Origin: Candidatus Adlerbacteria bacterium RIFOXYC1_FULL_48_26
GTDB taxonomy: Bacteria; Patescibacteriota; Minisyncoccia; Phycocordibacterales; SBAW01
NCBI GenBank assembly: GCA_001773575.1
Contig: MEXB01000004.1
Coordinates: 10,217 to 74,216, forward strand
DNA: 64,000 nt
Direction of reading: 5' to 3'
This document shows positions 340 through 61,087 of this stretch, one piece after another. The translations under genes were made by a program, and so were the position numbers. Below the pieces are notes generated by a model. It was not told where the DNA came from. It saw only the letters and a program-made list of their open reading frames with translations, and searched no databases. Within the stretch, counting starts at the first letter, position 1; the number at the start of each line of letters is the position of its first letter.

Positions 340-2571
340 ATGCAATCAAAGAAGTTCGAAACACAGATAGGCGGCAAAACATTGTCTGCCGAGTTTACTG
401 ACCTAGCAGAAAACGCGAATGGTTCGGTCATTGTCCGTTATGGCAACACAGCGTTGCTCGCAACAGCTGTTATCTCATCACGCACACGCGATGACATCGA
501 CTATTTCCCATTAAGCGTTGAGTTCGAGGAACGCTACTACGCAGCAGGTTCTATCGGCGGCTCTCGCTTTGTTCGCCGCGAAGGCCGCCCATCTGAGGCA
601 GCAATCCTTTCTGGCCGTGTTGTTGACCGAACCATTCGTCCTCTTTTCCCTCAACACCTCCGCAACGAAGTGCAGGTGATTATCACTATGTTGGCTCTCG
701 ATGAAGAAGACCCAGCAGCTGTGGCAGTAAATGCTGCATCACTTGCCCTCGCAACTTCTGACATCCCATGGGGCGGCCCAGTAGCCGCAGTTCGTATCGG
801 CAAAAAGAGCGACGGAGATTTTATCGTCAACCCTACATATATAGAACGCCAAAGCCCTGAAACTGTTTTGGATATTTTGGCCTGCGGTAAGGGCGGCACC
901 ATAAACATGATCGAGGTTGGCGCACAGCAAGTTACTGAAGATGATATTGCCGCGGGGTTTGTACGCGCATCTGCTGAACACGACAAGATCGTGGAGTGGC
1001 AAAACAAGATTGTTGCAGAAATAGGGAAGCAGAAGCGCGACGCTGCAAAACCGGAAATTCCAGCTGCTTTGAGCGAACTCTTTGAAACTGAATTTAAACA
1101 AAAACTAAGCGAGGCAGTGTTCTGCGGCGTGCCTAGCAAAGACGCTATTCACGAAGTACAGGATGCGTGGATGGCCAAAGTTAAACTTTTGGCTGCGCAG
1201 AACCTTTCCAGCGGTTCTGGTGAACCGGGAGAAGCTTCTACTTCGCCGTCACAAATAAATATTGGACAAGCAAAGCGTTTTCTTGAAGATAAAGTGGATG
1301 AAGAAATTCACCGCGGCGCCGTAGAAGAAAACAAGCGTGCGGATAATCGCAAGTTTGACGAAGTGCGCCCTCTGTTTGCAAAAGCAGGTGGCGTTTCTGA
1401 CATCTTGCACGGCTCAGGTATTTTCTATCGCGGAGGCACTCACGTATTTTCAGCGCTCACACTCGGTGGCCCTGGTGACTCACAAGTTATTGATTCAATG
1501 GAAGAACATGATGTTAAAAAACGCTTCATGCACCACTACAACTTTCCTCCATACTCTGCCGGAGAAACTGGACGTGTTGGTGGATTGAACCGCCGCATGA
1601 TTGGCCACGGAGCACTCGCAGAAAAAGCACTCGAAGCAGTGATCCCATCTGTTGAACAATTCCCATACACAATTCGTGTCGTCTCTGAATGTCTTGCAAG
1701 TAACGGTTCTACATCGATGGGTTCTGTCTGCGCATCAACGCTCGCACTTATGGATGGAGGTGTTCCGTTGAAAGCTCCCGTTGCCGGCATCGCGATGGGT
1801 CTCATGCTTTCAATGAACGGCGATGGTCGTTACAAAGTTCTCACAGACATCCAAGGACCTGAAGACGAATTCGGCGACATGGACTTTAAAGTCGCAGGTA
1901 CACGCGCTGGAGTTACTGCAATCCAGATGGACATCAAACTCGATGGAGTACCTGTACCTATTTTGGTTGAAGCACTCGCAGGAGCAAAAGTAGCACGCCT
2001 ACATATCCTCGATGTTATCGAAAAAGAAATTTCTACACCACGCGCAACCATCAACTCTCGAGCTCCAGAAATAATCACGATGAATGTTCACCCTGACCAA
2101 ATTGGTTTGGTTATCGGTGGGGGAGGAAAGACCATCAACGGCATCAAGGACACAACAAAGGTTAGCGATATCACTATCGAAGATGATGGTTCTATTTTCA
2201 TCACTGGCAAAAACGGCACAGCGCAGATGGCAAAGACTATGATCGAAGCGCTCGTAAAAGAATACAAAGCAGGCGAGATGTATGAAGGTGAGGTAACACG
2301 CATGATGGACTTCGGCGCCTTCGTACGCATCGGTCCAGGAAAAGATGCGGAAGGTCTCGTACACGTTTCTGAAGTTGCACCATTCCGTATCGACACAATT
2401 GCTGGCGCACTTTCTGTTGGAGATAAAGTGCGGGTTATGATTAAGGAGATAGACGAGAAAGGCCGTCTGAACCTGTCCATAAAAGCTGCTGACCCTGACT
2501 TCGCAGCGCGCAAAGGTCTAACACCGTCTACCCAACCAAATGGCCCAAGATCCTCAGGACCAAAATTCTAA
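340..2571 (+). CDS. pnp: Polynucleotide phosphorylase (PNPase)
   Basis: 743 aa with two RNase PH-like cores followed by KH and S1 domains (GGGGKTINGI...; EGEVTRMMDFGAFVRI). Typical PNPase N-terminus. Confidence 0.93.
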   Translation: MQSKKFETQIGGKTLSAEFTDLAENANGSVIVRYGNTALLATAVISSRTRDDIDYFPLSVEFEERYYAAGSIGGSRFVRREGRPSEAAILSGRVVDRTIRPLFPQHLRNEVQVIITMLALDEEDPAAVAVNAASLALATSDIPWGGPVAAVRIGKKSDGDFIVNPTYIERQSPETVLDILACGKGGTINMIEVGAQQVTEDDIAAGFVRASAEHDKIVEWQNKIVAEIGKQKRDAAKPEIPAALSELFETEFKQKLSEAVFCGVPSKDAIHEVQDAWMAKVKLLAAQNLSSGSGEPGEASTSPSQINIGQAKRFLEDKVDEEIHRGAVEENKRADNRKFDEVRPLFAKAGGVSDILHGSGIFYRGGTHVFSALTLGGPGDSQVIDSMEEHDVKKRFMHHYNFPPYSAGETGRVGGLNRRMIGHGALAEKALEAVIPSVEQFPYTIRVVSECLASNGSTSMGSVCASTLALMDGGVPLKAPVAGIAMGLMLSMNGDGRYKVLTDIQGPEDEFGDMDFKVAGTRAGVTAIQMDIKLDGVPVPILVEALAGAKVARLHILDVIEKEISTPRATINSRAPEIITMNVHPDQIGLVIGGGGKTINGIKDTTKVSDITIEDDGSIFITGKNGTAQMAKTMIEALVKEYKAGEMYEGEVTRMMDFGAFVRIGPGKDAEGLVHVSEVAPFRIDTIAGALSVGDKVRVMIKEIDEKGRLNLSIKAADPDFAARKGLTPSTQPNGPRSSGPKF

Positions 2572-3760
2572 AAATAGTTTAGACCTCAATAATATTCTGC
2601 TTCCAAAAAAGGACGCTCCTTCTGTCGACTCAGCACAGCGTGTTGATGCAGGAACTCTCATGCAGCAGGAACAAGCGGCGACTCTTCAGCCTCCGGTTTC
2701 TTCCAGTGATTCTGTTTCACGCCCTCCTGTAACCCACTCCCCGCAGGAAGGCATCGCTCCTCTGCAGACGTTTCAGGGTGATATCGCGAGTGCGATTGGG
2801 AATAAAGGCGTGTCCGTAGTCTCAATAGCCGCAGCAGAAGCTAATCGGCGCGGAACATTGCCTGTTTCACAGGACGCTCAAATAACAAACACACCAGCGC
2901 CTCATACGCTTCGTAACATCGTCTTCGCAGTTATCGGTTTGCTATTTGTAGCTGGCGCTGTCGGCGCTCTTACCTACATTGTAATGCTGAACGCACCGCT
3001 TCCGCAACAGCAAGCTGGTGTTGCACCATTCATTGCAATCGACAGCACCAACACAGTTTCTGTGGAACAAACCGTCAAAGCTCCGGGTCTTATGCAACGT
3101 CTCGTTTCAGCAAAAAATTCTGTTTCAATTTCATTGGGATTAGTCGCCCAGCTGTACGTAGAACAGAGCGGCACCAGCACTGAAGCGCAGCCAACATATA
3201 TGAGCGCTCAGACACTGCTCTCTACCCTCGCGTCAGGAGCGCCGGAAACTTTGGTGCGCGACGTTTCACCAATCTATCTTCTTGGGGTGCACTCGTTCGG
3301 AGTCAATCAACCCTTCCTGATTTTGAAAGTTGATTCATACGCGCAAGGATATGCCGGAATGCTTACGTGGGAAAAAACAATGAAGAAAGATCTTGCGCCA
3401 CTCTTCACCTACGTACCTGCTCCAAAGATCGGAATGCCGAAGCAGAACCCGGCTGCGGAGCCGAAGATCGACGCAGAGGGTTCTGCGCAGGCTCTCACGT
3501 CAGCATCCTCAACTGCCACTTCGACTCCGATCGTAGCTACCTCTACTCCGGAAGTACCCCCTCTTCAAACTGGTTTCACGGATGCCATAGTACAAAATCA
3601 TGACGCGCGAGTTACGACAGACAAATATGGAACTATAGATTTCTTGTGGACCTTCCTCGACCGACAGACTCTGGTTATCACAACAAACCCTGACACCTTG
3701 CGTGAAATTATTACCCGCCTTAAGCAGGCACCCATCCTCTATAAGTCAACTTCTCAATAA
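2540..3760 (+). CDS. Hypothetical single-pass membrane protein (Ser/Pro-rich N-terminus, one TM, Ser/Thr-rich tail)
   Basis: Long ORF with a TM helix FAVIGLLFVAGAVGALTYIVML. It contains a 55-58-nt segment nearly identical to one in the ORF at 15981-16640. Confidence 0.5.
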   Translation: MAQDPQDQNSKNSLDLNNILLPKKDAPSVDSAQRVDAGTLMQQEQAATLQPPVSSSDSVSRPPVTHSPQEGIAPLQTFQGDIASAIGNKGVSVVSIAAAEANRRGTLPVSQDAQITNTPAPHTLRNIVFAVIGLLFVAGAVGALTYIVMLNAPLPQQQAGVAPFIAIDSTNTVSVEQTVKAPGLMQRLVSAKNSVSISLGLVAQLYVEQSGTSTEAQPTYMSAQTLLSTLASGAPETLVRDVSPIYLLGVHSFGVNQPFLILKVDSYAQGYAGMLTWEKTMKKDLAPLFTYVPAPKIGMPKQNPAAEPKIDAEGSAQALTSASSTATSTPIVATSTPEVPPLQTGFTDAIVQNHDARVTTDKYGTIDFLWTFLDRQTLVITTNPDTLREIITRLKQAPILYKSTSQ

Positions 3761-4184: not shown

Positions 4185-4221
4185 ATACCTCGGGACTAAG
4201 TTTCCCGAGGTATTTGTTTTT
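4185..4221 (+). terminator. Rho-independent terminator
   Basis: Hairpin aatacctcggga-ctaagttt-tcccgaggtatt followed by a T-run. Confidence 0.75.
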
Positions 4222-4234
4222 ATACACTAGGTGC

Positions 4235-5794
4235 ATGCAATATGCGCGCGTATACGGAGCCCAAACTTCGCTCCTAACTCCACATATTGTTTCGGTGGAA
4301 ACTGATCTCTCTAGAGGACTACACTCATTCACTATCGTCGGTCTTCCAGACAAAGCTGTAGAGGAAAGTCGCGACAGGGTAGCGGCGGCTATTAAACATT
4401 CTGGTTTTGATTCTCCCAAAAGCAGAAACCAGAGAATCGTAATTTCACTCGCGCCAGCAGACCTACGTAAAGAAGGGCCAATGTTTGACCTCGCCATCGC
4501 GCTTTCATATCTACTTGCCGCTGATGATATTCGTTTCGATCCAGAACATTATTTGTTTGTTGGAGAACTTTCTCTTGATGGGAACCTTCAGCCGGTGCGA
4601 GGGATTTTGCCGCTTGTCGCCGAAGCAAAGCGGAAGGGGAAGCGCGCCATATTTGTTCCAAAGAAAAACGAGAGGGAAGCGGCACTTGTAAGTGGGATCG
4701 AAGTGTACGGGGCAAATACGTTAGGAGAAGTTGTTGACCATGTAAACGAGAAATCCCGACGCTCCGGAGGAGGTCGGGATCCCGACCAAAGCGTCGGGAA
4801 AAGGCTCGAACCGACTCCACCCACAAAATTAGAGCCTTCCCTCCAAGAATCACAATTCGCGTTCGAAGATATCCGCGGGCAGGAGAGCGCAAAGCGCGCA
4901 GCCATCATTGCTGCAGCGGGCGGACACAACCTAGGGCTTAGTGGGCCACCCGGCACAGGCAAAACAATGTTGGCACGAGCTCTTGCCTCAGTCCTTCCTC
5001 CACTGTCGTTTGATGAAGTGCTTGAAGTAAATAGTATTCATTCCGTTGCGGGCGTATTACATGAAAAACTTTTAACCGTGCCTCCGTTCCGGGCACCCCA
5101 TCACACAGCAAGCTATGTTTCTATCGTAGGAGGAGGCAGTAATGTACGCCCAGGCGAGGTAACACTCGCGCATCGTGGCGTTTTATTTTTGGATGAATTT
5201 CCAGAATTTGATAGGCGGCTTATTGAAGCTCTACGTCAACCACTCGAAGATAGGGTTATTGCTGTTGCACGTGCAAAAGGCACAGCAGTATTTCCAGCAC
5301 GTTTCACCTTAGTCGCGGCAATGAACCCCTGCCCATGCGGCAACTATGGCCACCCGGACGTTGCCTGCACCTGTAGCCCTATGTCGCTTGAACGGTATAG
5401 AAGAAAAATTTCAGGACCTATAGCGGACCGCATAGATCTTTGGATTGTTATGGGGCCAGTAGATTTACCAGAACTTGGAAAAAAATCTGTGCGGGGCACA
5501 GAGACAGAAGCGGCGCGGACACAAGTGCTCGACGCCCGCGCAATGCAGCATGCACGCTATGGCACAGCGAAAACAAATAGTGATCTTTCGCCGCGCGAGT
5601 TAGAAAATTTTGTTCCGCTTACCGCAGGCGCCAGGGCAACATTAGAAAAAGCGGGGCAGAGGCTTTCGCTCTCTCCCCGCGCATTTCACCGTGTTATAAA
5701 AGTCGCTCGCACTATTGCAGACCTCGATGGTTCCCCCGACATTAACGAATCACACATCCTCGAAGCTCTGCAGTATCGACAACGGAAAACCTAG
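4235..5794 (+). CDS. comM: Mg-chelatase-like AAA+ ATPase, YifB/ComM family
   Basis: N-terminal Lon-protease-like domain (TIVGLPDKAVEESRDRV), Walker A GPPGTGKT, ChlI-type AAA+ core, and a C-terminal zinc motif CPCGNYGHPDVACTC. Start placed at the ATG downstream of the TTG at 4214. Confidence 0.9.
   Translation: MQYARVYGAQTSLLTPHIVSVETDLSRGLHSFTIVGLPDKAVEESRDRVAAAIKHSGFDSPKSRNQRIVISLAPADLRKEGPMFDLAIALSYLLAADDIRFDPEHYLFVGELSLDGNLQPVRGILPLVAEAKRKGKRAIFVPKKNEREAALVSGIEVYGANTLGEVVDHVNEKSRRSGGGRDPDQSVGKRLEPTPPTKLEPSLQESQFAFEDIRGQESAKRAAIIAAAGGHNLGLSGPPGTGKTMLARALASVLPPLSFDEVLEVNSIHSVAGVLHEKLLTVPPFRAPHHTASYVSIVGGGSNVRPGEVTLAHRGVLFLDEFPEFDRRLIEALRQPLEDRVIAVARAKGTAVFPARFTLVAAMNPCPCGNYGHPDVACTCSPMSLERYRRKISGPIADRIDLWIVMGPVDLPELGKKSVRGTETEAARTQVLDARAMQHARYGTAKTNSDLSPRELENFVPLTAGARATLEKAGQRLSLSPRAFHRVIKVARTIADLDGSPDINESHILEALQYRQRKT
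4754..4799 (+). repeat. Nested palindromic repeat element (copy 1), in-frame inside the comM linker
   Basis: tcccgacg-N11-gtcgggatcccgac-N5-cgtcggga. A second copy is at 57181-57220. Confidence 0.6.
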
Positions 5795-10350: not shown

Positions 10351-11241
10351 ATGGATACGGGCCGATATCTTCCCAGTAAGCAGTTTTCTCTGATAACTAT
10401 CTCTCTGTTTCTTTCAGCTGGTCTTGTATTTGCCGCAGAACATATACATAAGCCTTCTACAGGCTCACTTGCTGTAGATACTACAGGCGCAGCACCCGCA
10501 GGTGCAGGCGACTGGAAGGCCTCTCTTGAGAGTGTGCAGCAAAATTCGGGCATTTCACTTCCTTCTGCACCCGATCAAAATACCGTAGAAGGCCTTTTAC
10601 AAGCCGCTCAAAGCAACAACCTCACGGAAAGCGTGTCACGAAGCCTGTTCGTGAACCTCGTTAATGCCAAAGGGCAAGGGCTTGGTAGTGATATTCCGAC
10701 ACAAGACCAAATAGTTACCCAGGCCCTTTCTCAAGTGCCTGCCTCTATCCGCACAAAGACCTACTTTACAGAAGATCTTACGCTTACTGATACTTCAAAG
10801 ACCTCATTACACGCCTATGGCAATGCGGTAATGACGGTTCTACAGAAAAACTCCAACCAAGAATACGCAAAGACACTGGTTATTATTGACGCTGTTACGA
10901 CAAAAAATGACGCAACCCAGCTTGAACTCCTAAAACCAATTCAAAAAACCTACAAACACATATCCAACGAGCTAATTGCCATACCTGTTCCAAAAATACT
11001 TGCACCGTTCCATCTTCAGCTTGTAAACGATTTTGAAAACATAACCGCAACATACGACAAGTTCGAGGCTCTCGTTGGTGACCCTCTTAACGGAATTGCG
11101 GCAATCCAACAATATCGAACGCTTACGCAGGATGCAGGCCAAATGTTCATAAACATCGCACAAACTTTCCAGAAGAACGATATAATTTTCAATAAGGACG
11201 AGCCGGGGGCGACGTGGGCTTTTCTTCTGCAATCGCAGTAA
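10351..11241 (+). CDS. Hypothetical secreted/membrane-anchored protein (first gene of the T4SS-like cluster)
   Basis: N-terminal hydrophobic segment ITISLFLSAGLVFAA. No recognisable domain. Confidence 0.5.
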   Translation: MDTGRYLPSKQFSLITISLFLSAGLVFAAEHIHKPSTGSLAVDTTGAAPAGAGDWKASLESVQQNSGISLPSAPDQNTVEGLLQAAQSNNLTESVSRSLFVNLVNAKGQGLGSDIPTQDQIVTQALSQVPASIRTKTYFTEDLTLTDTSKTSLHAYGNAVMTVLQKNSNQEYAKTLVIIDAVTTKNDATQLELLKPIQKTYKHISNELIAIPVPKILAPFHLQLVNDFENITATYDKFEALVGDPLNGIAAIQQYRTLTQDAGQMFINIAQTFQKNDIIFNKDEPGATWAFLLQSQ

Positions 11242-15980: not shown

Positions 15981-16640
15981 ATGCCAGAGAACTCTGCAGA
16001 CTCAATTCAAAACCAAATAGAGCAGCGTCTTACTGAACTGCCTCAAGATGTACGAGATGTCGTACTCTCTTCACAACTTGGAGAGCGTTTACGCGAGATC
16101 GGCCAAAAACACGGCCTTCATATAGATCAAATTGGTGTATTAGAAGACGAAGTGATGCTCGTGATGCTTGGGTTTTTTGAACCTGAAGACTTTAACAACC
16201 AGATTGCCAACCAGCTTCATCTCTCCACCCTCGACGCAACAGCTATAGCACAGGAGATCAACCAGGTGATATTCCTCCCAATTCGTGAATCTATGATAGC
16301 GTTTGCTGCCTCAAAGCGCGCAGCTAAGCCTGTAACCGAGCCTGCGCAAGACCGTCCGATCGGTTCTGTTGAACCGCGGCCCGATCTTGCTTCGGCACCT
16401 GCCCGTCCGGCAGGCGGGTCCACGTTACCTGTAGCGGTTACGGCACCTAACAACATCCCAATTAGGATTGAAACGCCGCAGCAGAACCCGGCTGTGGAGC
16501 CGAAGACCGACGCAGAGGGTTCTGCGCCGGCAAAACCACCAATGCCTCCGATGCCAAATGCAGAAAAAATGCTGACAGAGACAACTGTTGCAAAACCAAT
16601 CTATAAAACTGATCCATATCGAGAACCTATAGAGCCGTAG
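15981..16640 (+). CDS. Hypothetical protein with Pro-rich C-terminus
   Basis: ORF with an RBS. Shares a near-identical 55-58-nt segment with the ORF at 2540-3760. Confidence 0.5.
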   Translation: MPENSADSIQNQIEQRLTELPQDVRDVVLSSQLGERLREIGQKHGLHIDQIGVLEDEVMLVMLGFFEPEDFNNQIANQLHLSTLDATAIAQEINQVIFLPIRESMIAFAASKRAAKPVTEPAQDRPIGSVEPRPDLASAPARPAGGSTLPVAVTAPNNIPIRIETPQQNPAVEPKTDAEGSAPAKPPMPPMPNAEKMLTETTVAKPIYKTDPYREPIEP

Positions 16641-26693: not shown

Positions 26694-27791
26694 ATGAAAT
26701 TTGAGACCAGTACAACAGAATTTCTCTCCGCGGTGGGGACAGCAACACGTTTTGTTGAACGTCGTGCAAACCTTCCAGTACTCGCTGGAATTTTGATGGT
26801 TGCAGAAGGTGGTCGTCTTACCTTGCGCGCTACTAACCTTGAGTGTGGGGTTGAGATAACTGTTCCGGCAAAAATTACAACTGAAGGTATGGTTGTGGTC
26901 CCTGCTGCAGTGCTTTCAGGATTTTTAAATACAGCACGAGGTAAAACAGTTTCGATCTCTCTTGTAGGAGAAGTTTGTAAGGTGGAGACAGAACGTGCCT
27001 CAGCATCGATTAAAACGCTTCCACACGAAGATTTCCCAGTGCTTCCACGTGTATCCGCAGAACGCTCATTTACTGCTAAGAGCGCGGATCTGGCGCGTGC
27101 AATACGCAGTGTTGCGTACTGTGCATCACTTTCTGCTACAAAACCTGAACTTCAGAGTGTATTGCTTAGTGCTGATGGGGGTAAGCTCACAGCAGCAGCA
27201 ACGGACTCATTCCGTCTTGCGGAGAAGGTGGTACCTCTTCGTGGCGGAGCCTCAACCCCTCAACTTCTTGTTCCTGCGCGTAATGCAGCAGAGCTTATGC
27301 GTATTCTCGATACAGCAGGAGGTGAAGCAGAGATCTACTTCAATGAAAACCAGCTTTCAACCCATGTAGGAACTATTTACTACACAAGCCGTGTTATTGA
27401 TGCCGCATTTCCTAACTACAAACAAATTATTCCAAAGACCTTTGCAACAGAAGCGCTCGTACTACGCGAAGATCTCTCTGTAGCTCTTAAATCAATCAGT
27501 ATTTTTGCAGATAAGTTCTCGCATGTATCTGTGGCCCTCGACCCAGCTAAAAAAATAGTTACGCTTACATCCCGCAACCCAGATGTGGGGGAGCAAGTGT
27601 GCACACTTAAAGCGACTATAACTGGTGAACCTTTCACTATGTCCTTTAACGGCCGTTACCTTGCCGACAGCCTCCAGTCTGCCCAAGGAGAAAGCATTAA
27701 AATCCAGGCTAATGGCCCCGGTAAGGCTATTCTCATCCGCGATGCAGGTGATGACTCATTCTTCTACCTTGCGATGCCAATGAACCGCTAA
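26694..27791 (+). CDS. dnaN: DNA polymerase III beta sliding clamp
   Basis: 365 aa, three-domain clamp sequence, directly downstream of dnaA. Confidence 0.9.
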   Translation: MKFETSTTEFLSAVGTATRFVERRANLPVLAGILMVAEGGRLTLRATNLECGVEITVPAKITTEGMVVVPAAVLSGFLNTARGKTVSISLVGEVCKVETERASASIKTLPHEDFPVLPRVSAERSFTAKSADLARAIRSVAYCASLSATKPELQSVLLSADGGKLTAAATDSFRLAEKVVPLRGGASTPQLLVPARNAAELMRILDTAGGEAEIYFNENQLSTHVGTIYYTSRVIDAAFPNYKQIIPKTFATEALVLREDLSVALKSISIFADKFSHVSVALDPAKKIVTLTSRNPDVGEQVCTLKATITGEPFTMSFNGRYLADSLQSAQGESIKIQANGPGKAILIRDAGDDSFFYLAMPMNR

Positions 27792-36729: not shown

Positions 36730-39092
36730 CGGATCGAAAAAGACTGGTTTTGTTGGACACGCACGCGATTTTGCATCGGGCGTACCACGCGTTGCCAGAC
36801 TTTGCCTCTAAAAAAGGGGAGCCAACAGGTGCGCTCTACGGCGTTGTCTCTATGCTTCTAAAAATTATCGCGGACTTTAAGCCCGACTATATTATTGCGG
36901 CGGGGGATTTGCCCGGGCCAACTCTCCGCCATGCGGCGTTTGAAAACTACAAAGCGCAGCGTAAGGAAACAGATGATGCGCTTGTTTCGCAGATTGTTCG
37001 TTCACGCGATCTATTGGAGGCGTTCGGCATTCCCCTCTATGAAATGGCAGGGTACGAAGCTGACGACATCATCGGCACTGTAGCGAAAGAACTAAAGAAA
37101 GAAGTCGATGTTGTTATCGCATCAGGCGACATGGACATGCTCCAGCTTGTTGATGACGACAAGGTAACTGTCTTTACGTTTAAGAAAGGAATCAACGACA
37201 CGATTGTATATAACGAAGCGGCGGTACAAGAACGTTTTGGTTTTGGCCCTTCGCGTATTCCAGACTATAAAGGTTTGCGCGGTGACCCGTCTGACAATAT
37301 TCCTGGAGTAAAAGGAATTGGTGAAAAGACCGCGAGCACGCTGATACAACAGTTCGGCAGTGTTGAAGATATATATAAGGCCCTTAAGAAAGATCCAGAA
37401 AAACTTGGAGAGGCTGGAATAAAAGAGGGAATGATAAAGAAGTTGCAGGAACAGGAAGAAGAAGCTCTGTTTTCTAAGGAGCTGGCAACAATACACACCT
37501 CAGTGCCTATTCGTTTTTCATTGCCAAAAGAAGAATTCCGCAGCAACCTTTCAGAAAAGAAAGTTACTGCAATGCTCGAGGAGTTTGATTTCCGTTCGCT
37601 CGTTCCGCGCATGAGAAAACTGCTCGACTCGTCTATCCGAAATGAAGAGTTGTTTGCAGAAGTGCCTGCAGAGGAAAAACCTCTACCGGAAGATTTCCAT
37701 GAAGTTGCGCTTGCGGTCTCTGTGCTCGACGCAACAAACAGTGAACCAACGCTTGAAGACATTTACCGCATGGGGAATAGCGAGGATTTTGCTACAGCAA
37801 AAAAGAATATTCTTGCAGAGATACAGAAAGAGAATCTTGATTTTATATATAACAAAATGGAGATGCCTCTTTCTCCAGTGCTCCGCCGCATGGAGGCGCG
37901 TGGGGTGCTCGTAGACAAAGATTTTCTAGCAAAGCTTTCAACGGAGTACCACGAAGAGCTGGAGAAAATTGCTGCACGTATTTACGAAGCAGCGGGAGGG
38001 GAGTTCAATATTAATTCCCCAAAACAATTAGGAGACATACTTTTCGACAAACTTGGACTTGCGGTAAAGAATCAGAAAAAAACAGCAGGTGGGCAGCGTT
38101 CAACGCGCGAGTCTGAACTTGAGAAGATGCGCGAACTGCATCCTATCGTGGATGATATTTTAAAACACCGCGAATTGCAGAAACTTCTTTCTACGTATAT
38201 CGACAGTATTCCAACCTTGCTGGATAACGAGAATCGCCTCCACACTTCATATATACAAATAGGTGCGGGAACTGGCCGTATGGCATCGAAGAACCCTAAC
38301 TTGCAAAACATTCCTATTAAGAGTGACCTTGGTCGTGCTATTCGCAATGCGTTTATCGCAAGCCCTGGTATGGAGCTTGTGACCTTCGACTATTCGCAGA
38401 TCGAACTTCGCGTTGCAGCATTTCTTTCTAAAGACCCAACACTTACAGAGATCTTTAAAACTGGGGGAGATGTCCATACAGAAGTAGCAACGCGCGTCTT
38501 CCACGTTAAACCAGAAGATGTGACGTATGAAATGCGTCGACGCGCCAAGGTTATTAACTTCGGCATTATCTACGGCATGGGTGTGAATGCGCTTCGTGAG
38601 TCTCTCGGCACAACGCGTGGAGAGGCTCAGGAGTTTTATGATCAATATTTTGCAGCCTTTCCACGACTCGCAAAATATCTAGAAGAAATAAAAGCCGATG
38701 CGACACGAACAGGGTACACGCAGACACACTTCGGCCGCATTCGATACTTCGAAGGGTTAAAGTCGCCAATTCCATACATCAAAGCAGCGGCTGAACGTGC
38801 CGCAGTAAATGCACCGTTCCAGGGAACCGCAGCCGACTTGCTCAAACTCGCGATGATAGAGATTGGCGCATGGGTAGAAAAAGAGAATCTGGGAGACGAT
38901 GTGCACATGCTTCTCCAGGTACACGACGAATTGGTATTTGAAATTAAGAAATCAGAAGTTGAATCTGCCGCACAACAAATCAAGAAACGTATGGAGGGGG
39001 TTATGTCTGAAAAAGAGAGTGGGGGTATTCCATTTCTTGCTGAAGGAAAGATTGGAAAAAACTGGGGTGAGATGAAACCGCTAAAAGTATGA
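36726..39092 (+). CDS. polA: DNA polymerase I (5'-3' exonuclease plus polymerase)
   Basis: N-terminal FEN-like domain (LVLLDTHAILHRAYHA), polymerase motifs A (DYSQIELR) and C (QVHDE). Confidence 0.95.
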   Translation: MTDRKRLVLLDTHAILHRAYHALPDFASKKGEPTGALYGVVSMLLKIIADFKPDYIIAAGDLPGPTLRHAAFENYKAQRKETDDALVSQIVRSRDLLEAFGIPLYEMAGYEADDIIGTVAKELKKEVDVVIASGDMDMLQLVDDDKVTVFTFKKGINDTIVYNEAAVQERFGFGPSRIPDYKGLRGDPSDNIPGVKGIGEKTASTLIQQFGSVEDIYKALKKDPEKLGEAGIKEGMIKKLQEQEEEALFSKELATIHTSVPIRFSLPKEEFRSNLSEKKVTAMLEEFDFRSLVPRMRKLLDSSIRNEELFAEVPAEEKPLPEDFHEVALAVSVLDATNSEPTLEDIYRMGNSEDFATAKKNILAEIQKENLDFIYNKMEMPLSPVLRRMEARGVLVDKDFLAKLSTEYHEELEKIAARIYEAAGGEFNINSPKQLGDILFDKLGLAVKNQKKTAGGQRSTRESELEKMRELHPIVDDILKHRELQKLLSTYIDSIPTLLDNENRLHTSYIQIGAGTGRMASKNPNLQNIPIKSDLGRAIRNAFIASPGMELVTFDYSQIELRVAAFLSKDPTLTEIFKTGGDVHTEVATRVFHVKPEDVTYEMRRRAKVINFGIIYGMGVNALRESLGTTRGEAQEFYDQYFAAFPRLAKYLEEIKADATRTGYTQTHFGRIRYFEGLKSPIPYIKAAAERAAVNAPFQGTAADLLKLAMIEIGAWVEKENLGDDVHMLLQVHDELVFEIKKSEVESAAQQIKKRMEGVMSEKESGGIPFLAEGKIGKNWGEMKPLKV

Positions 39093-39733
39093 TTCATGTA
39101 ATTGTTGGAAACGCGCCGCAGCAAAAATTCTCCGGAGCGAGCCGCGAAAGAGGCGCAAGCGAGCGAGGAGAAGTTTTTGCGCAGGCGATGGATCTCAAAT
39201 GGGAAACAATCACCATTGAAGAGTTGGCGGACATCGCATCAACTCCAACTCTGTTTGGTGGTTCACAAACCTATAAACTCGCTGGTGCTATTGCAGGTGA
39301 GAGGGGAGAAGAGTTCCTAGAGTTGGCGGACGGTTTGGTGGAGTCGCCACACACCTTCATTTTTGAAGAAGAAAAACTTCTTAAGAAACCAACCGATATT
39401 CTCAAAAAAGCTGGAGCAAAATTAGAGATCCACGAGCCAAAGAAAAAAGAGGAGACGTTTAACATGTTTGCATTGGCAACAGTGTTTGGCACCCGCGATC
39501 GCAAGAAACTCTGGCTTATGCTCAATAAAGCCTCTCGTGCAGGCGCGGCCCCTGAAGCTGTTGCCGGCATGATGCACTGGAAAGTCCGCGACATGATGGC
39601 TAAAGGCAGCTCTACATACAAAAAAGAAGAATTGCAAAAGATATCGCGCACGTTGGTGACCCTGTACCACGACTCCCACCGCGGAGCAGGGGACCTCGAG
39701 CTTCTTCTTGAGCGCTTCGCGCTCAAGCTATAA
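39089..39733 (+). CDS. Hypothetical protein, possibly DNA polymerase III delta (HolA)-like
   Basis: Translationally coupled to polA by a 4-nt overlap. Weak resemblance to the HolA N- and C-terminal regions. Confidence 0.35.
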   Translation: MIHVIVGNAPQQKFSGASRERGASERGEVFAQAMDLKWETITIEELADIASTPTLFGGSQTYKLAGAIAGERGEEFLELADGLVESPHTFIFEEEKLLKKPTDILKKAGAKLEIHEPKKKEETFNMFALATVFGTRDRKKLWLMLNKASRAGAAPEAVAGMMHWKVRDMMAKGSSTYKKEELQKISRTLVTLYHDSHRGAGDLELLLERFALKL

Positions 39734-40420
39734 TTGCAGGTAATGGCAAAAGGCTTTTTTCTAGGACTGCTCGGACTCTTTTTTGCGACAGTTCTTATGT
39801 TGTTTGCATATCAACTCAATATGCTACCTGCGTCTGTGTATCCTTTTGCATACAAAATCATGCAGGCATTCTCATTTATTGCACCTGTCCCTCCAGCGCT
39901 TGAGAAGTTTGAAGGTACATGGGTTGTGACGTTTACTCCTACGCGGCCGCAGTCGGACCTTGGTACCTGCGCAATCCCAAGCGGCTTATTGCGTACGCAC
40001 GCAGGTGCATTTACTGGTAATGTCGGATCTTCAGTGCCTATTAAGGCAAGTACAACTGACGACGGCAGGCTTACGGGTGTTATTGGAAACGGTTCGACAC
40101 TGCGAAAAGGAACGCTTGTCGCCTACATAGAGAAGGGGGCAGGCCAAGGAACATGGAAAGATGATTTTGAATGTGAGGGCAGCGTGCTGTTAACAAAACA
40201 ACAACTGGTAACGGACCCTATACAAGGGAAGGTGGTGTCATCTGGGGACGACAGCATACTGGTGCGCAGCGGCGAGCTTCGTTCATTGCGGCCGGGTATG
40301 CCGCTGTATCGTGGAGATATAATCGAAGCTCACAGTGGCACAGTGTTGCTTGGCATGGGGGCTGCGTTTGAGACAGCAGTAAACCTCACTCCTTCTATGA
40401 CCTACAAAGTCGGGCAGTGA
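39734..40420 (+). CDS. Hypothetical membrane-anchored protein
   Basis: N-terminal TM FFLGLLGLFFATVLMLFAY, then a soluble domain. Confidence 0.5.
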   Translation: MQVMAKGFFLGLLGLFFATVLMLFAYQLNMLPASVYPFAYKIMQAFSFIAPVPPALEKFEGTWVVTFTPTRPQSDLGTCAIPSGLLRTHAGAFTGNVGSSVPIKASTTDDGRLTGVIGNGSTLRKGTLVAYIEKGAGQGTWKDDFECEGSVLLTKQQLVTDPIQGKVVSSGDDSILVRSGELRSLRPGMPLYRGDIIEAHSGTVLLGMGAAFETAVNLTPSMTYKVGQ

Positions 40421-49348: not shown

Positions 49349-50368
49349 ATGGACAAAAAAACTTATCGAACATTGGACTTATTTGCAGGTATAGGAGGAG
49401 TAAGGATGGGTTTTGAACGTGCTGGGTTTGAGACAATCTTTGGAAATGATTTTGATGCATACTGCAAGGTAACCTACGATTTAAACTTTAAAGACACTCC
49501 ACTGGTGGTCGCTGATATAGCGAAAATTAAAAGCGCGGATCTCCCAGACTTCGACATATTGCTCGGTGGGTTTCCATGCCAACCATTTTCAGTTGCTGGG
49601 TATAGAAGAGGTTTCCTAGATACAGGACGAGGGGATCTGTTTTTTGAAATCATAAGAATTTTACGCGACAAGAAACCACGCGCTGTCTTCTTGGAAAATG
49701 TAAAGAATTTGAGTTCGCATGATAAAGGAAGGACCTTCAATATCATTTCCGAGGCATTAGAGGATCTTGGTTATCATGTAACAACAAAAGTTCTTAACAG
49801 CATGAAGTATGGAAATGTTCCTCAGAATAGGGAGCGTGTATATATTGTCGGATTCAAGTCGAAGAAAGCGCTAGAAGCTTTTGAATTTCCAAAACCTGTT
49901 GAATTAACGAAAACTGTTAACGCTCTACTCGAGAAAGAAGTTGAAGAGAAATACTACTACAACAAATCCCCACTCTATAAAGTACTAAAGGAGTCAATGA
50001 CATCTAAGGAGGTTGTCTACCAGTGGCGTAGGAAATATGTTCGTGCAAACAAGAGCGGGGTGTGCCCAACCTTGACTGCAAACATGGGAATGGGTGGACA
50101 TAACGTCCCACTGATCAAAGATCATAAGGGTATTCGAAAACTAACTCCAAGAGAATGTGCAAGAATTCAAGGATTTCCTGAGAATTACAAGCTTCCTAAG
50201 AATCTTCCCGATACCAAGCTTTACAAACAGTTTGGAAACTCGGTTACCGTCACTGTTATCGAGCGCGTTGCCAAACAGATAAAGAAAGCGCTAGACTCAG
50301 GGAACAACGATGTTGTTTCTAGAGCACCAGCCAAAAGAGCAGGTAGAGTGCTACAACCGACTGCTTAA
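49349..50368 (+). CDS. DNA (cytosine-5)-methyltransferase, HaeIII/NgoPII-like
   Basis: m5C motifs I (LDLFAGIGG), IV (GFPCQPFS), VI (ENVKNL), VIII (QNRERVYIVG) and X (GNSV). The C-terminus RKLTPRECARIQGFPENY...GNSV closely resembles M.HaeIII. Low GC, about 37-40% by eye. Confidence 0.9.
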   Translation: MDKKTYRTLDLFAGIGGVRMGFERAGFETIFGNDFDAYCKVTYDLNFKDTPLVVADIAKIKSADLPDFDILLGGFPCQPFSVAGYRRGFLDTGRGDLFFEIIRILRDKKPRAVFLENVKNLSSHDKGRTFNIISEALEDLGYHVTTKVLNSMKYGNVPQNRERVYIVGFKSKKALEAFEFPKPVELTKTVNALLEKEVEEKYYYNKSPLYKVLKESMTSKEVVYQWRRKYVRANKSGVCPTLTANMGMGGHNVPLIKDHKGIRKLTPRECARIQGFPENYKLPKNLPDTKLYKQFGNSVTVTVIERVAKQIKKALDSGNNDVVSRAPAKRAGRVLQPTA

Positions 50369-51491
50369 GGCTGTCGGGTCTTTGTCCAAGCTATTTTCTG
50401 AGGCGCCAGAACCATATTTGGCTTATAGGGCGGCTGAAAATTTATTTTGTAAGGCTTTTATAGCCGAGAATCTTTCTCGTTCTGATGCCTCAGCTGACGC
50501 CTCCAAAGACAGGGTGGGGATTGGTCTCAAGACCTTTCTTAATGGGAATGGTCGTAGTCTGCAAAAAGTGGCAGAATTTAACAACGATTTAAATCTTTTT
50601 AGATCACTCGGACCTGAAGACATGGTCAGGAAAGTGGCCGAGTTGCGAAATGAACGCTTGGAGACAACGAAACGCATCTACAATCTTGATAAAATAATAT
50701 ATCACTGTGTCACTCGTACAGTTGGGAAGATGCTCGTGTACGAGACTCCGGCACATCCGATAGATATCGAGACTATAAAAAACGTAGAGGTTTCGCCTAG
50801 AGGAAATACCATCACATTTTCAGACTCTCTCGAGGAATATTCCTTCAGTATTTCCAAGAGCACGCTTTCTAAGCGTTTTGTGACTCCAGAAAAGGTGCTT
50901 CTTGAGCTTCCGGTGAGGATTGTTTCAGATCCTTTCGAAGAAGTGGAAAAGTTGATCACGGAAGCTGGGCCTATTTTCGCACCAATAAAAGTTCAGCCTC
51001 ATGTTTTCCTCCCTCTCTATTCTATGAGAGGAGAGAAGCGTGTTCCGGAAAGTAGTGGCTTGAACCAATGGAATGCTCGTGGACGGAAGAGAAATCCTGA
51101 TGAGGTATATATTCCAATCCCTGCCTGGGTCCACAAAAAATTTTCAAAGTTCTTTCCTGCGACCAACGATGAGGTATTTAATCTGACCTTACCAGATAGA
51201 ACTGTGTTGAGCGCTAGTATGTGCCAAGAAAACAGGAAGGCTTTGATGAGTAACCCCAACACCGTCCTTGGAAAATGGATTTTGCGCGATGTTATGAATC
51301 TCGGAGAAGGGGAGCTCGCTACCTACGAAAAATTGCAAACGATGGGCGTAGACAGTGTGGTCGTTTATAAAGTGGATAGTGAAAATTACGATATAGATTT
51401 TGCTCCCGTAGGTTCTTACGAGAAATTTCTAGAGGAAAACAATAAACCTACTGAAGGGGCGGAAGATTATCTGGACGAAGAGGGGGAATAA
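50310..51491 (+). CDS. Putative type II restriction endonuclease (partner of the m5C methyltransferase)
   Basis: Overlaps the methyltransferase 3' end by 59 nt and shares its low GC. No motif recognised; call is by operon context only. Confidence 0.45.
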   Translation: MLFLEHQPKEQVECYNRLLKAVGSLSKLFSEAPEPYLAYRAAENLFCKAFIAENLSRSDASADASKDRVGIGLKTFLNGNGRSLQKVAEFNNDLNLFRSLGPEDMVRKVAELRNERLETTKRIYNLDKIIYHCVTRTVGKMLVYETPAHPIDIETIKNVEVSPRGNTITFSDSLEEYSFSISKSTLSKRFVTPEKVLLELPVRIVSDPFEEVEKLITEAGPIFAPIKVQPHVFLPLYSMRGEKRVPESSGLNQWNARGRKRNPDEVYIPIPAWVHKKFSKFFPATNDEVFNLTLPDRTVLSASMCQENRKALMSNPNTVLGKWILRDVMNLGEGELATYEKLQTMGVDSVVVYKVDSENYDIDFAPVGSYEKFLEENNKPTEGAEDYLDEEGE

Positions 51492-57150: not shown

Positions 57151-57170
57151 TGCGGTATTGTGTGTTCATC

Positions 57171-57237
57171 GCGCGCTTAGTCCCGACGCCTTGGTCGGGA
57201 TCCCGACAGAATCGTCGGGACTCAGTTGGTAGCCGCG
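57171..57237 (+). pseudogene. Degenerate 5' fragment of tRNA-Val interrupted by a 40-nt palindromic element
   Basis: GCGCGCTTAG + [41-nt insert] + TCAGTTGGTAG reproduces 21 of the first 22 nt of the intact tRNA-Val 11 nt downstream. Confidence 0.5.
57181..57220 (+). repeat. Nested palindromic repeat element (copy 2)
   Basis: tcccgacg-N5-gtcgggatcccgac-N5-cgtcggga, same architecture as 4754-4799. Confidence 0.6.
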
Positions 57238-57247
57238 TCATATATCT

Positions 57248-57320
57248 GCGCGCTTAGCTCAGTTGGTAGAGCAACTCATTTACACTGAGAAGGTCGGGGG
57301 TTCAAGTCCCTCAGCGCGCA
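57248..57320 (+). tRNA. tRNA-Val (anticodon UAC)
   Basis: Acceptor GCGCGCT/AGCGCGC, D-arm TAGCTCAGTTGGTAGAGC, anticodon loop UUUACAC, T-arm GGGGGTTCAAGTCCCTC. Confidence 0.85.
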
Positions 57321-60097: not shown

Positions 60098-61087
60098 ATG
60101 CAAACGCTTAAGTTTTTCATTGCGCCAATTACTGTTTCTGTAATAGCCCTCGCGATTGTTGGGTGGTGGGGTGGCCTCGGTGCATTTTTATTGGCAACAA
60201 TGCTCGCAGTTCTTGAAGTTACCCTTTCGTTCGACAACGCAGTAGTTAATGCCAAAGTTCTCAAAGAGATGTCTGCTGTATGGCAGCGCCGCTTTTTGAC
60301 CTGGGGTATTTTGCTTTCAGTAGTAGGCACGCGCCTTATACTCCCAATAATTATTGTGAGCATCGTGGCGTTTATGTCTCCGTTTGCCATCACGATGTTG
60401 GCATTTACTGACCCAGCAGAATACACACGCCTCTTGCTTGGCGCCGATGGATCAATCAAAGCATTCGGCGGAGCCTTCTTGCTTATGGTTGCCCTTAAGT
60501 TTTTCGTAGACGCTGGAAAAACAGTTCACTGGATAGCGGCTATAGAAAAGCGCATAGCGAAGTGGGGGAATATAGAAGCTATAGAAGCGGCACTTGTAAT
60601 GCTTGTACTCGTTGTGCTGTCTTTCTTCTCTCACGACTCAGCAGCGACTATCTTGCGCAGCGGTATCGTCGGTATCGTACTCTTTACAGTAACGGAAGGA
60701 GTCGCTAACGGACTTAATATTGAATCAAAGCATGTCGTCCGTTCGGGCGGAGTGCTCTTCTTGTACTTGAACTTGTTGGATACAGCCTTTTCTCTCGACG
60801 GCGTTATCGGAGCCTTCGCACTTACAACCTCGCTTCCTATCATCGTCGTAGGTCTTGGTATCGGCGCATACTTCGTACGTTCTCTTACGGTATATCTTGT
60901 CCGCGCAAAGACACTCGATACGCTTATCTACTTGGAGCACGGTGCGCACTGGGCAATCCTCGGGTTGGCAGGGGCAATGTTCGCTGGTCTTGTTGTCCAT
61001 GTCCCTGAAATCTTTACCGCCTCTATCGGCATTGCCTTTATCCTTCTCTCGTACTACTCATCGCGCCGCGAAATTAAGGCACACTAA
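60098..61087 (+). CDS. DUF475-type integral membrane protein (TerC-related), paralogue 1
   Basis: LEVTLSFDNAVVNAKVL signature and multi-TM topology. Confidence 0.6.
   Translation: MQTLKFFIAPITVSVIALAIVGWWGGLGAFLLATMLAVLEVTLSFDNAVVNAKVLKEMSAVWQRRFLTWGILLSVVGTRLILPIIIVSIVAFMSPFAITMLAFTDPAEYTRLLLGADGSIKAFGGAFLLMVALKFFVDAGKTVHWIAAIEKRIAKWGNIEAIEAALVMLVLVVLSFFSHDSAATILRSGIVGIVLFTVTEGVANGLNIESKHVVRSGGVLFLYLNLLDTAFSLDGVIGAFALTTSLPIIVVGLGIGAYFVRSLTVYLVRAKTLDTLIYLEHGAHWAILGLAGAMFAGLVVHVPEIFTASIGIAFILLSYYSSRREIKAH

What the first reader, a model, noticed from the sequence alone, without database searches (positions are those of the whole stretch)
3434..3491. Near-identical 55-58-nt segment shared by two otherwise unrelated genes 13 kb apart (3434-3491 and 16481-16538)
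...AGCAGAACCCGGCTG[c/t]GGAGCCGAAGA[t/c]CGACGCAGAGGGTTCTGCGC... is shared with only about 3-5 mismatches over about 55 nt. It encodes PKQNPAAEPKIDAEGSAQA in the membrane protein 2540-3760 and PQQNPAVEPKTDAEGSAPA in the cytoplasmic-looking protein 15981-16640 inside the T4SS-like cluster. The surrounding protein sequences are not detectably homologous. Nucleotide-level conservation this high in non-homologous contexts suggests recent gene conversion or a shared peptide module. The module could be an interaction epitope linking the membrane protein to the secretion cluster, or an RNA-level element.
Basis: seen in the sequence. Interest (0 to 1): 0.6.

Follow-up and report, generated by a model that had tools for sequence, protein, structure and literature searches.

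The report
In-frame hairpin repeat family in Adlerbacteria
The stretch shared by the two genes is one copy each of a small, dispersed hairpin-forming DNA repeat that sits in-frame inside many unrelated genes of this tiny-genome (CPR) bacterium, much like the palindromic elements of Rickettsia. It is not a private link between the membrane protein and the secretion cluster.

Summary
The repeat is real. Window 3434-3492 and 16473-16531 are 54/59 identical (59/66 with flanks), in the same codon phase; shuffles expect 0 matches.

It is not specific to these two genes. It is a ~59-nt hairpin element, ATGCCG[A/C]A-GCAGAACC-N29-GGTTCTGC-GCAGGC. The window (Candidatus Adlerbacteria, Patescibacteria) has five copies:
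- PNPase
- gene A
- gene B, twice, in opposite orientations
- ORF 39089-39733

Related genomes carry further copies in a cysteine desulfurase, a protease, a methyltransferase, two membrane proteins and one intergenic spacer.

Main evidence:
- PNPase orthologues in two relatives have an empty site.
- Copies at non-orthologous sites in different species are 58/59 identical, while orthologous genes are 80-86% identical.
- The hairpin is kept through compensatory changes (0/500 shuffles reach the observed covariation).
- One strand folds better in 19/19 copies, whatever the host gene's orientation.
- Every coding copy uses the one frame per orientation that reads QN...GSA, and lies in a linker or loop.

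Best reading: a selfish, probably mobile, RPE/REPIN-like palindromic element that is tolerated when translated. No mobilising enzyme, target duplication or whole-genome census was obtained. The epitope or A-B link interpretation is not supported.

The parts
3434..3492 (+). Element copy, subfamily V1, forward (F) orientation, in-frame in gene A; encodes MPKQNPAAEPKIDAEGSAQA
   Evidence: CM score 78.3 bits. 58/59 identical to copies in other species: L024 at a non-orthologous site and L059 at the orthologous site. RNA fold -32 kcal/mol, z = -4.0.
16473..16531 (+). Element copy, subfamily V1, F orientation, in-frame in gene B; encodes TPQQNPAVEPKTDAEGSAPA
   Evidence: CM score 75.8 bits. Fold -32.3 kcal/mol, z = -4.9. 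54/59 identical to the gene A copy.
16340..16398 (-). Second copy in gene B, with the element's F strand on the minus strand (reverse relative to the gene); encodes PAQDRPIGSVEPRPDLASA. Arms are GCAAGATC/GGTCTTGC, a compensated variant of GCAGAACC/GGTTCTGC
   Evidence: CM score 78.8 bits. F-strand fold -33.5 kcal/mol, z = -4.0, against -26.6 for the gene's sense strand.
1191..1249 (-). Copy of subfamily V2, reverse relative to the gene, in-frame in the PNPase gene; encodes AAQNLSSGSGEPGEASTSP. The 5' arm is partly decayed
   Evidence: CM score 71.3 bits. PNPase orthologues in L056 and L058 lack it, giving an empty site and a net +51 nt. Its core is close to the copy shared by the A and B orthologues of another lineage (L007/L008).
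39113..39186 (+). Longer variant copy (about 74 nt) with arms GCAAAAATTCTCC/GGAGAAGTTTTTGC and the usual flanks GCCGCA...GCGCAGGC. It is in-frame near the N-terminus of ORF 39089-39733; encodes APQQKFSGASRERGASERGEVFAQA
   Evidence: CM score 29.7 bits, E = 5.6e-6. Fold -34.6 kcal/mol, z = -2.85. Found independently by the flank pattern.
2540..3760 (+). Host gene A: conserved Paceibacteria membrane protein, 406 aa, no Pfam hit. The element lies in a coil/low-confidence linker, residues 296-354
   Evidence: AlphaFold pLDDT is below 50 for residues 296-354.
15981..16640 (+). Host gene B: conserved 219-aa protein encoded just upstream of the PrgI / TraC-like / VirB4-like / T4SS-pilin genes. It has a helical N-terminal domain (residues 1-114), a variable linker and a conserved C-terminal motif; both element copies lie in the linker
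   Evidence: pLDDT is below 50 for most of residues 119-184.
340..2571 (+). Host gene PNPase (pnp). The element lies in the variable all-alpha region, about residues 285-303
39089..39733 (+). Host ORF of 214 aa with no Pfam hit, downstream of polA

Best explanation
The shared segment is a copy of a dispersed family of short (59 to about 95 nt) hairpin-forming repeat elements found in one sub-clade of Candidatus Adlerbacteria (Patescibacteria/CPR).

Anatomy. The element has conserved termini, ATGCCG[A/C]A-GCAGAACC ... GGTTCTGC-GCAGGC. These form an 8-9-bp stem, plus an outer GCC/GGC stem across a 3x3 internal loop. The interior is variable and itself a hairpin, and it defines subfamilies.

Shown:
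- Copies lie in unrelated genes, in both orientations, and once in a spacer.
- At least one copy is an insertion relative to orthologues.
- Copies at non-orthologous sites in different species are nearly identical.
- The hairpin is maintained by compensatory substitutions.
- All coding copies are in-frame, stop-free, in one particular frame per orientation, and in linkers or loops.

Inferred:
- The element is selfish DNA that spreads. It either moves as a non-autonomous element recognised as a single-stranded hairpin by an enzyme supplied in trans (an HUH/Y1-type transposase, as for IS200/IS605 or REPIN-RAYT), or it spreads by recombination between copies.
- In a gene-dense, roughly 1-Mb genome it survives almost only where its translation is harmless: the hydrophilic QN...GSA frame, in disordered linkers and surface loops.
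- Genes A and B look alike here only because both carry subfamily V1.
- The elements also drive linker turnover, seen as interior replacement at fixed sites and as deletions between element termini.
For: Dispersal. CM R1 finds 5 copies in the window, in 4 genes. Related genomes have copies in a membrane protein (L024), a trypsin-like protease (L039), a SAM methyltransferase (L039:5159-5253), a cysteine desulfurase (L021/L047), another membrane protein (L048) and an intergenic spacer between an MGMT-like gene and rlmH (L029).

Insertion.
- PNPase of L056 and L058 reads ...KEKLKEETYAEINPGVAKRF. The window PNPase reads ...AKVKLLA[AQNLSSGSGEPGEASTSPS]QINIGQAKRF.
- The cysteine desulfurase carries about 15 extra residues relative to PDB 9wep.

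Recent spread or constraint.
- The window gene A copy is 58/59 identical to the L024 copy, which is in another gene of another species.
- Orthologous genes of those two genomes are only 80-86% identical at the nucleotide level, and 55% at third codon positions.
- At the orthologous A site, window vs L059 is 58/59 within a gene that is 85% identical.

Hairpin.
- z-scores are -3.6 to -7.6.
- 88-89% of cells are paired; 8-9 pairs change on both sides; 0/500 shuffles reach the observed value; slid controls give 25-44% paired.
- Compensatory examples: GGCT/AGCC to GGTT/AACC (L021); CGGTTC/GAACCG to CGATTC/GAATCG (L029); GCCGC/GCGGC to GCCGT/ACGGC (L060 vs L010); arms GCAGAACC/GGTTCTGC to GCAAGATC/GGTCTTGC and CAAAACTCT/AGAGTTTTG.

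Polarity. The F strand is more stable in 19/19 copies, by a mean of 3.8 kcal/mol. In those copies it is the sense strand in 9, the antisense strand in 9 and intergenic in 1.

Frame. Every coding copy reads Q-N/K...S-A in either orientation, although all six frames of V1 are open.

Location. The copies lie in low-pLDDT coil in A (residues 296-354) and B (119-184).

The peptide is not what is conserved. Reverse copies encode different peptides, and one copy is intergenic.

Plasticity. L061 B has a precise deletion between the termini of the two B copies, giving GAGCCTGCGCAGGCAAAACCA. L056 A retains only a scar, ACGCCTGCGCAGGCTCTCACC. The interior differs at orthologous sites in PNPase, A and both B sites.
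Against: - No transposase, integrase or reverse transcriptase was found in any window ORF of 140 aa or more. No autonomous relative was found.
- There is no target-site duplication.
- At the PNPase site the net gain is 51 nt, not 59, so the insertion is not a clean cut-and-paste event, or it was followed by further change.
- Copy number appears modest. Exact-architecture scans found only a handful of true copies in 596 Gb of genomes and in the JGI metagenome set.
- The window's own genome was not available for a census.
- Copies recur at the same few genes (A, B), which could mean recombination or conversion rather than transposition.
- Strong compensatory maintenance of the stem, and higher conservation than the flanking coding DNA, would equally fit a host function for the hairpin.
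- The 19 copies are not phylogenetically independent, so the 19/19 strand asymmetry is only suggestive.
Confidence: 0.7

Rival explanations
1. The hairpin is a host-beneficial structured nucleic-acid signal: for example an mRNA stabiliser or processing site, a translation-pausing hairpin placed at domain boundaries, or a binding site for a DNA/RNA-binding protein. On this reading it has been recruited into several genes and is kept by selection on structure.
For: - Strong covariation and stem maintenance.
- The element is more conserved than the flanking coding DNA at the orthologous A site: 58/59 against 85%.
- The B reverse copy is 89-91% identical between window and K2Q00, inside a linker that is otherwise 36-60% identical.
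- Copies sit at domain boundaries or linkers.
Against: - The better-folding strand is antisense to the host gene in half of the copies. A single mRNA-level role therefore does not fit all copies.
- The host genes are functionally unrelated: PNPase, cysteine desulfurase, protease, methyltransferase and a T4SS-associated protein.
- Close orthologues do well without the element, as shown by the empty PNPase sites, the scar in L056 A and the deletion in L061 B.
- Interiors are swapped freely at the same site.
- There is no Rfam match.
Confidence: 0.15
2. There is no mobility. The segments are quasi-palindromic low-complexity linker DNA that arises and is homogenised locally. The proposed mechanisms are replication slippage, intramolecular template switching (which copies one arm onto the other and so mimics compensatory change) and occasional ectopic gene conversion between linkers.
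For: - No TSD and no transposase.
- Messy junctions at the PNPase site.
- Deletions exactly between short direct repeats at element termini.
- L024 and B share a 175-nt block that includes both copies, which looks like segmental transfer.
Against: - The same 59-nt unit, with the same termini, occurs in at least 10 unrelated sites, in both orientations and in a spacer.
- 58/59 identity between non-orthologous sites of genomes that differ by 15-20% needs transfer of a discrete unit.
- The conserved termini are too short (about 14 nt) for efficient homologous conversion.
Confidence: 0.1
3. One reading: a shared peptide module or docking epitope, or a recent gene conversion specific to A and B, that functionally links the membrane protein to the T4SS-like cluster.
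For: - Both copies are in-frame and encode a similar hydrophilic 19-20-aa peptide.
- In another lineage the A and B orthologues again share one sequence, a different one (56/59).
Against: - The same DNA occurs in PNPase, ORF 39089-39733 and other genes of related genomes.
- The L007/L008 shared version is the element in reverse orientation and encodes an unrelated peptide.
- Close A orthologues (P0123, P0124, P0125) and a close B orthologue (P0003) lack it.
- Conservation follows base-pairing, not amino acids.
Confidence: 0.03

Closest known systems
Rickettsia palindromic elements (RPE; Ogata et al. 2000, as summarised in PMC10969869 and PMC3184786)
   Same: A palindromic, hairpin-forming dispersed repeat in a reduced genome. 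It is inserted in-frame inside unrelated housekeeping genes without breaking them. The encoded peptide is placed where the fold tolerates it. There are several subfamilies, and no known mobilising enzyme.
   Different: The size is 59 to about 95 nt, against about 105-150 bp. There is no sequence relationship. The phylum is different (Patescibacteria vs Alphaproteobacteria). Both orientations are translated, each in one fixed frame. The interior is replaced at fixed sites while the termini are kept. The copy number seen so far is modest.
REP/REPIN elements mobilised by RAYT (IS200/IS605-like Y1/HUH transposases)
   Same: A short imperfect palindrome with conserved unpaired bases at the foot of the stem. 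There is no target-site duplication. Strand polarity is intrinsic (one strand folds better). Stem integrity is kept by compensatory change, as expected if an enzyme recognises a single-stranded hairpin. Inverted doublets occur (the two copies in gene B).
   Different: REPs are extragenic, whereas these are almost always intragenic and translated. No RAYT or TnpA gene could be looked for genome-wide. The REP-type 5' GTAG signature was not seen. No orientation bias relative to the replication fork appears among the five window copies.
Bacterial MITEs found fused to ORFs (ERIC, BRE, RUP/BOX/SPRITE, QMITE; PMC3184786, PMC10969869)
   Same: Small non-autonomous repeats with terminal inverted repeats, sometimes in-frame inside genes.
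   Different: No TSD and no parent IS with matching TIRs was found. The element is much shorter than most MITEs. Intragenic location is the rule here rather than the exception.

Membership tests
Rickettsia palindromic elements (RPE) | Repeated sequence able to form a long hairpin | tested here: met
   z = -3.6 to -7.6 for individual copies. 88-89% of cells are paired across 14-17 copies.
Rickettsia palindromic elements (RPE) | Multiple copies inserted in-frame in unrelated protein-coding genes that remain intact | tested here: met
   Five copies in four window genes. Further copies in a cysteine desulfurase, a protease, a methyltransferase and membrane proteins. Empty PNPase site in L056/L058.
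Rickettsia palindromic elements (RPE) | Sequence and size of the RPE families (about 105-150 bp, Rickettsia lineage) | tested here: not met
   The element is 59 to about 95 nt and comes from Candidatus Adlerbacteria. There is no Rfam family at gathering threshold. RPE size is taken from PMC3184786 and PMC10969869. It therefore works like an RPE but is not a member.
REP/REPIN-RAYT | Short imperfect palindrome with a conserved single-stranded foot and strand polarity | tested here: met
   Conserved GAA/GCA internal loop and GCC/GGC outer stem. F strand more stable in 19/19 copies.
REP/REPIN-RAYT | Extragenic location | tested here: not met
   Only 1 of about 11 independent sites is intergenic (L029).
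REP/REPIN-RAYT | A cognate RAYT/TnpA (Y1 HUH) gene in the genome | not testable with these tools
   None is present in the 64-kb window.
MITE | Terminal inverted repeats | tested here: met
   GCC-nnn-GCAGAACC ... GGTTCTGC-nnn-GGC.
MITE | Target-site duplication flanking each copy | tested here: not met
   No direct repeat longer than 2 nt at the boundaries of 11 copies.
MITE | Autonomous IS with the same termini | not tested
   Not found in the window or in fetched loci; no genome-wide search was possible.
Diversity-generating retroelement TR/VR pair | Mismatches confined to template adenines, with a reverse transcriptase nearby | tested here: not met
   The mismatches between the two copies are T/C, A/C, C/T, T/C and A/C. 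No RT domain is present in the window.
   Reverse copies encode other peptides, one copy is intergenic, the hosts are unrelated enzymes, and conservation tracks base pairs.
DNA uptake sequence (DUS/USS) | A short motif strongly over-represented throughout the genome | tested here: not met
   GCAGAACC and GGTTCTGC occur only inside element copies: 3 and 2 times against about 0.9 expected.

The most novel reading that the evidence does not exclude
The hairpins are not just passive junk. They may be substrates of a strand-specific, hairpin-recognising DNA enzyme of these CPR bacteria that swaps hairpin interiors between copies while leaving the roughly 14-nt termini in place. That would make them a cassette-exchange process that keeps rewriting disordered linkers and surface loops of housekeeping, envelope and T4SS-associated proteins. 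The reading is supported by three observations: different interiors at the same orthologous sites (PNPase, A, both B sites), near-identical interiors at unrelated sites, and one consistently better-folding strand irrespective of gene orientation.
Probability: 0.1. Interest if true: 0.8.

Novelty: new variant of a known kind. Interest (0 to 1): 0.55.

Why it matters
Translated, in-frame palindromic repeats are best known from Rickettsia. Finding an unrelated and much smaller family doing the same thing in a CPR/Patescibacteria lineage suggests this is a convergent fate of selfish hairpin DNA in very compact genomes, where intergenic space is scarce.

There are practical consequences too:
- These elements create spurious local similarity between unrelated proteins.
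- They create hypervariable islands in otherwise conserved genes such as PNPase.
- They promote linker deletions.
- They could mislead homology, domain and recombination analyses of CPR metagenome-assembled genomes.

The clear covariation and strand polarity give a concrete handle for finding the enzyme that moves or maintains them.

Tried and rejected
They were corrected using the 13039-nt offset.
- DGR template/variable repeat: rejected, because the mismatches are not adenine-specific and there is no RT.
- DNA-uptake sequence: rejected, because the arms are not over-represented outside the copies.
- Flank-pattern hits at window 10432-10502 and 39946-40005, at L047:11614-11683, and the weak CM hit at L024:20-55: rejected, because they do not fold better than shuffles.
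- The viral-contig scan gave one hit without the flanks or an interior hairpin, so it is a chance match.
- 31 of 35 genome-contig hits and 6 of 8 metagenome hits are chance matches in unrelated phyla, about the number expected.
- The third protein-database search, with concatenated element peptides, returned only two B-family proteins and no census.
- I first took L048 to be the orthologue of the L039 protease because they share 8 extra flank bases. Its ORF is a different membrane protein, so it is not counted as an interior swap at an orthologous site.
- No orientation bias relative to the replication origin was seen. The GC-skew minimum lies near dnaA at about 25 kb, and the copies left of it are split 2:2.
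- Rfam at gathering threshold found only tRNAs.

Full report
**Observation.** The two stretches exist, but the true register is an offset of 13039 nt. Window 3434-3492 pairs with 16473-16531 (54/59 identical), and the longest ungapped extension is 3427-3492 vs 16466-16531 (59/66). The 45-nt core with up to 3 mismatches occurs twice, against 0.00 expected in 100 dinucleotide shuffles. BLASTP of the two proteins finds nothing else in common. The segment is also a strong hairpin: a 9-bp perfect stem GCAGAACCC/GGGTTCTGC, -32 kcal/mol, z = -4.0 and -4.9.

**Organism and hosts.** The window comes from Candidatus Adlerbacteria, per the source name of the identical protein P0121 and the Rifle/ANAN16 contigs.
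- Gene A (2540-3760) is a conserved Paceibacteria membrane protein with no Pfam domain.
- Gene B (15981-16640) is a conserved 219-aa protein just upstream of PrgI-, TraC-like, VirB4-like and T4SS-pilin genes.
- In both families the segment lies in a variable linker between conserved parts. AlphaFold models give coil with pLDDT below 50 there: A residues 296-354, and most of B residues 119-184.

**It is a dispersed family, not an A-B link.** In another Adlerbacteria lineage the A orthologue (L007) and a B orthologue (L008) share a different 59-nt stretch (56/59). It has the same architecture, GCAGAACC-N29-GGTTCTGC.

Searching the window for that architecture finds a third copy inside the PNPase gene, core 1197-1241. 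Aligning all copies in one orientation gives an ungapped 67-column alignment with conserved termini, ATGCCG[A/C]A-GCAGAACC ... GGTTCTGC-GCAGGC, and variable interiors that define subfamilies. The 'different' L007/L008/PNPase sequence is simply the element in reverse orientation.

A covariance model built on 14 copies, run without filters, finds in the window:
- four strong copies of 71-79 bits: 1187-1253(-), 3430-3496(+), 16336-16402(-) and 16469-16535(+);
- a fifth, longer variant at 39109-39190(+), E = 5.6e-6.

Gene B thus carries two copies in opposite orientations.

Exact-architecture scans of public collections gave mostly chance hits in other phyla, about the number expected. The true hits are all Patescibacteria. 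Their contexts are:
- two more copies in GCA_019752125.1, in a membrane protein (L024) and in a trypsin-like protease (L039);
- a 95-nt variant in a SAM methyltransferase (L039:5159-5253);
- a copy in a cysteine desulfurase (L021/L047);
- a copy in another membrane protein (L048);
- an intergenic copy between an MGMT-like gene and rlmH (L029).

**Evidence that copies are insertions and are young.**
- PNPase orthologues in two relatives (L056, L058) read ...KEKLKEETYAEINPGVAKRF. The window PNPase has ...AKVKLLA[AQNLSSGSGEPGEASTSPS]QINIGQAKRF, a net gain of 51 nt.
- The GCA_019752125.1 PNPase, 92% identical overall, has at the same site a different palindrome, CAAAACTCT...AGAGTTTTG.
- The cysteine desulfurase has about 15 extra residues relative to solved homologues, exactly at the element.
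- Window and GCA_019752125.1 genes are 80-86% identical at the nucleotide level (55% at third positions in B). Yet the window gene A copy and the L024 copy, in different genes, are 58/59 identical.
- At the orthologous A site the element is 58/59 identical between window and L059, in a gene that is 85% identical.
- The elements are absent from 30 kb of the more distant L056/L058 lineages, apart from a scar in L056 A.

**Structure.** For the outer stems plus one interior stem:
- 88-89% of cells pair;
- 8-9 pairs show changes on both sides;
- none of 500 shuffles reaches the observed values;
- sliding the partner by 1-3 columns drops pairing to 25-44%.

Column 21-49 alone shows C-G, U-A and G-C. 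Each subfamily's own interior stem also shows compensatory pairs (L021, L029; L060 vs L010), and whole arms are replaced by complementary variants.

One strand (F) folds better than its complement in 19 of 19 copies, by a mean of 3.8 kcal/mol. It is the sense strand of the host gene in 9 copies, the antisense strand in 9, and intergenic in 1. The copies share ancestry, so this result is suggestive only. It argues against a role tied to the host mRNA and for a DNA-level or element-level polarity.

**Coding behaviour.** All six frames of subfamily V1 are open. Even so, every intragenic copy, in either orientation, is read in the frame that begins Q-N/K and ends S-A. That frame gives P/A/E/G/S-rich peptides; the other frames would give Arg/Cys-rich peptides. 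This is what a selection filter on tolerable insertions would leave.

**Plasticity.**
- L061 B has lost both copies and the spacer by a deletion exactly between the two termini, leaving GAGCCTGCGCAGGCAAAACCA.
- L056 A retains only ACGCCTGCGCAGGCTCTCACC, with the 45-nt core absent.
- L007 A has a left-end remnant followed by a full reverse copy.
- L024 shares a 175-nt block containing both B copies.
- Interiors differ between lineages at the PNPase, A and both B sites, while the termini persist.

**Mechanism.** Shown: a dispersed, structured, insertion-polymorphic repeat that is translated in-frame. Inferred: it is selfish DNA spreading as a discrete hairpin unit. Three features resemble REP/REPIN or IS200/IS605-type substrates handled as single-stranded hairpins: the absence of target duplications, the conserved unpaired foot, and the strand polarity. 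However, no such enzyme was found in the window, and genomes could not be scanned. The junctions at the PNPase site are not clean, so recombination between copies may contribute.

The rivals, with my probability for each:
- a host-useful hairpin signal, about 0.15;
- purely local quasi-palindrome dynamics, about 0.1;

**Comparison and novelty.** The closest analogue in behaviour is the Rickettsia palindromic element, which is in-frame, palindromic, sits in unrelated genes and occurs in a reduced genome (PMC10969869, PMC3184786). This family is unrelated in sequence, two to three times shorter, from another phylum, and used in both orientations. It fails the REP criterion of extragenic location and the MITE criterion of a TSD. 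Rfam has no matching family. Full-text searches found no description of such elements in Patescibacteria, though absence from that library is not proof. I rate it a new variant of a known kind and moderately interesting.

Noticed in passing
window 4755-4830 (inside the comM-like gene 4214-5794) and 57160-57240 (just upstream of the tRNA at 57248): A second, different hairpin repeat built on GTCGGGA/TCCCGAC (repeat finder I1 and I3). The comM copy is in-frame (…SRRSGGGRDPDQSVGKRLEPTPP…) in the linker before the AAA domain; the other copy is intergenic. Folds have z = -2.3 and -3.3. This genome may therefore host more than one family of translated palindromic repeats.
   Followed up: partly
L024:2832-3812 vs L010:10352-10525 and window 16332-16539: A 326-aa membrane protein of GCA_019752125.1 shares a 175-nt block (77% identity) with the gene B linker. 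The block contains both element copies and the spacer. This looks like segmental transfer of a double-copy block between unrelated genes.
   Followed up: partly
L061:1187-1675 (B orthologue P0003): The B linker is shortened by a precise deletion between the termini of the two inverted element copies (…EPAQ|AKP…). This shows that the roughly 60-aa linker is dispensable and that the elements promote deletions.
   Followed up: yes
window 63226-63372: Five tandem 21-nt repeats encoding EDIDEIQ-type heptads, inside ORF 62996-63448 (weak DUF948/DUF1003 hits).
   Followed up: no
window 60098-61087 and 61093-62103: Tandem paralogous DUF475/TerC-family membrane protein genes (repeat families D3-D5, spacing 989 nt).
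   Followed up: no
window about 23.3-27.8 kb: Replication-origin neighbourhood: jag/R3H, yidC, (rnpA), dnaA 25072-26484 and dnaN 26694-27791. The cumulative GC-skew minimum is at about 24-28 kb. The T4SS-like cluster (about 10.3-23.3 kb) runs head-on towards it, and this arrangement is conserved in several relatives (L001, L005, L008, L010).
   Followed up: partly
window 49349-51491: A Dcm-type cytosine methylase followed by an overlapping NgoFVII-like restriction endonuclease (C-terminal B3-like domain), apparently a type II restriction-modification pair. A DUF2779 protein lies next to it.
   Followed up: no
window 2540-2571: Gene A starts 32 nt before the PNPase stop codon. The overlapping gene pair is conserved in L007, L011, L056, L058 and L059.
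   Followed up: no
right flanks of element copies: The 5-6 nt after GCAGGC fall into recurrent classes: AAAAC in five copies, TCTCA in two and TCGGTT in two. Either the element extends a few bases further in subfamily-specific ways, or there is a target preference.
   Followed up: no
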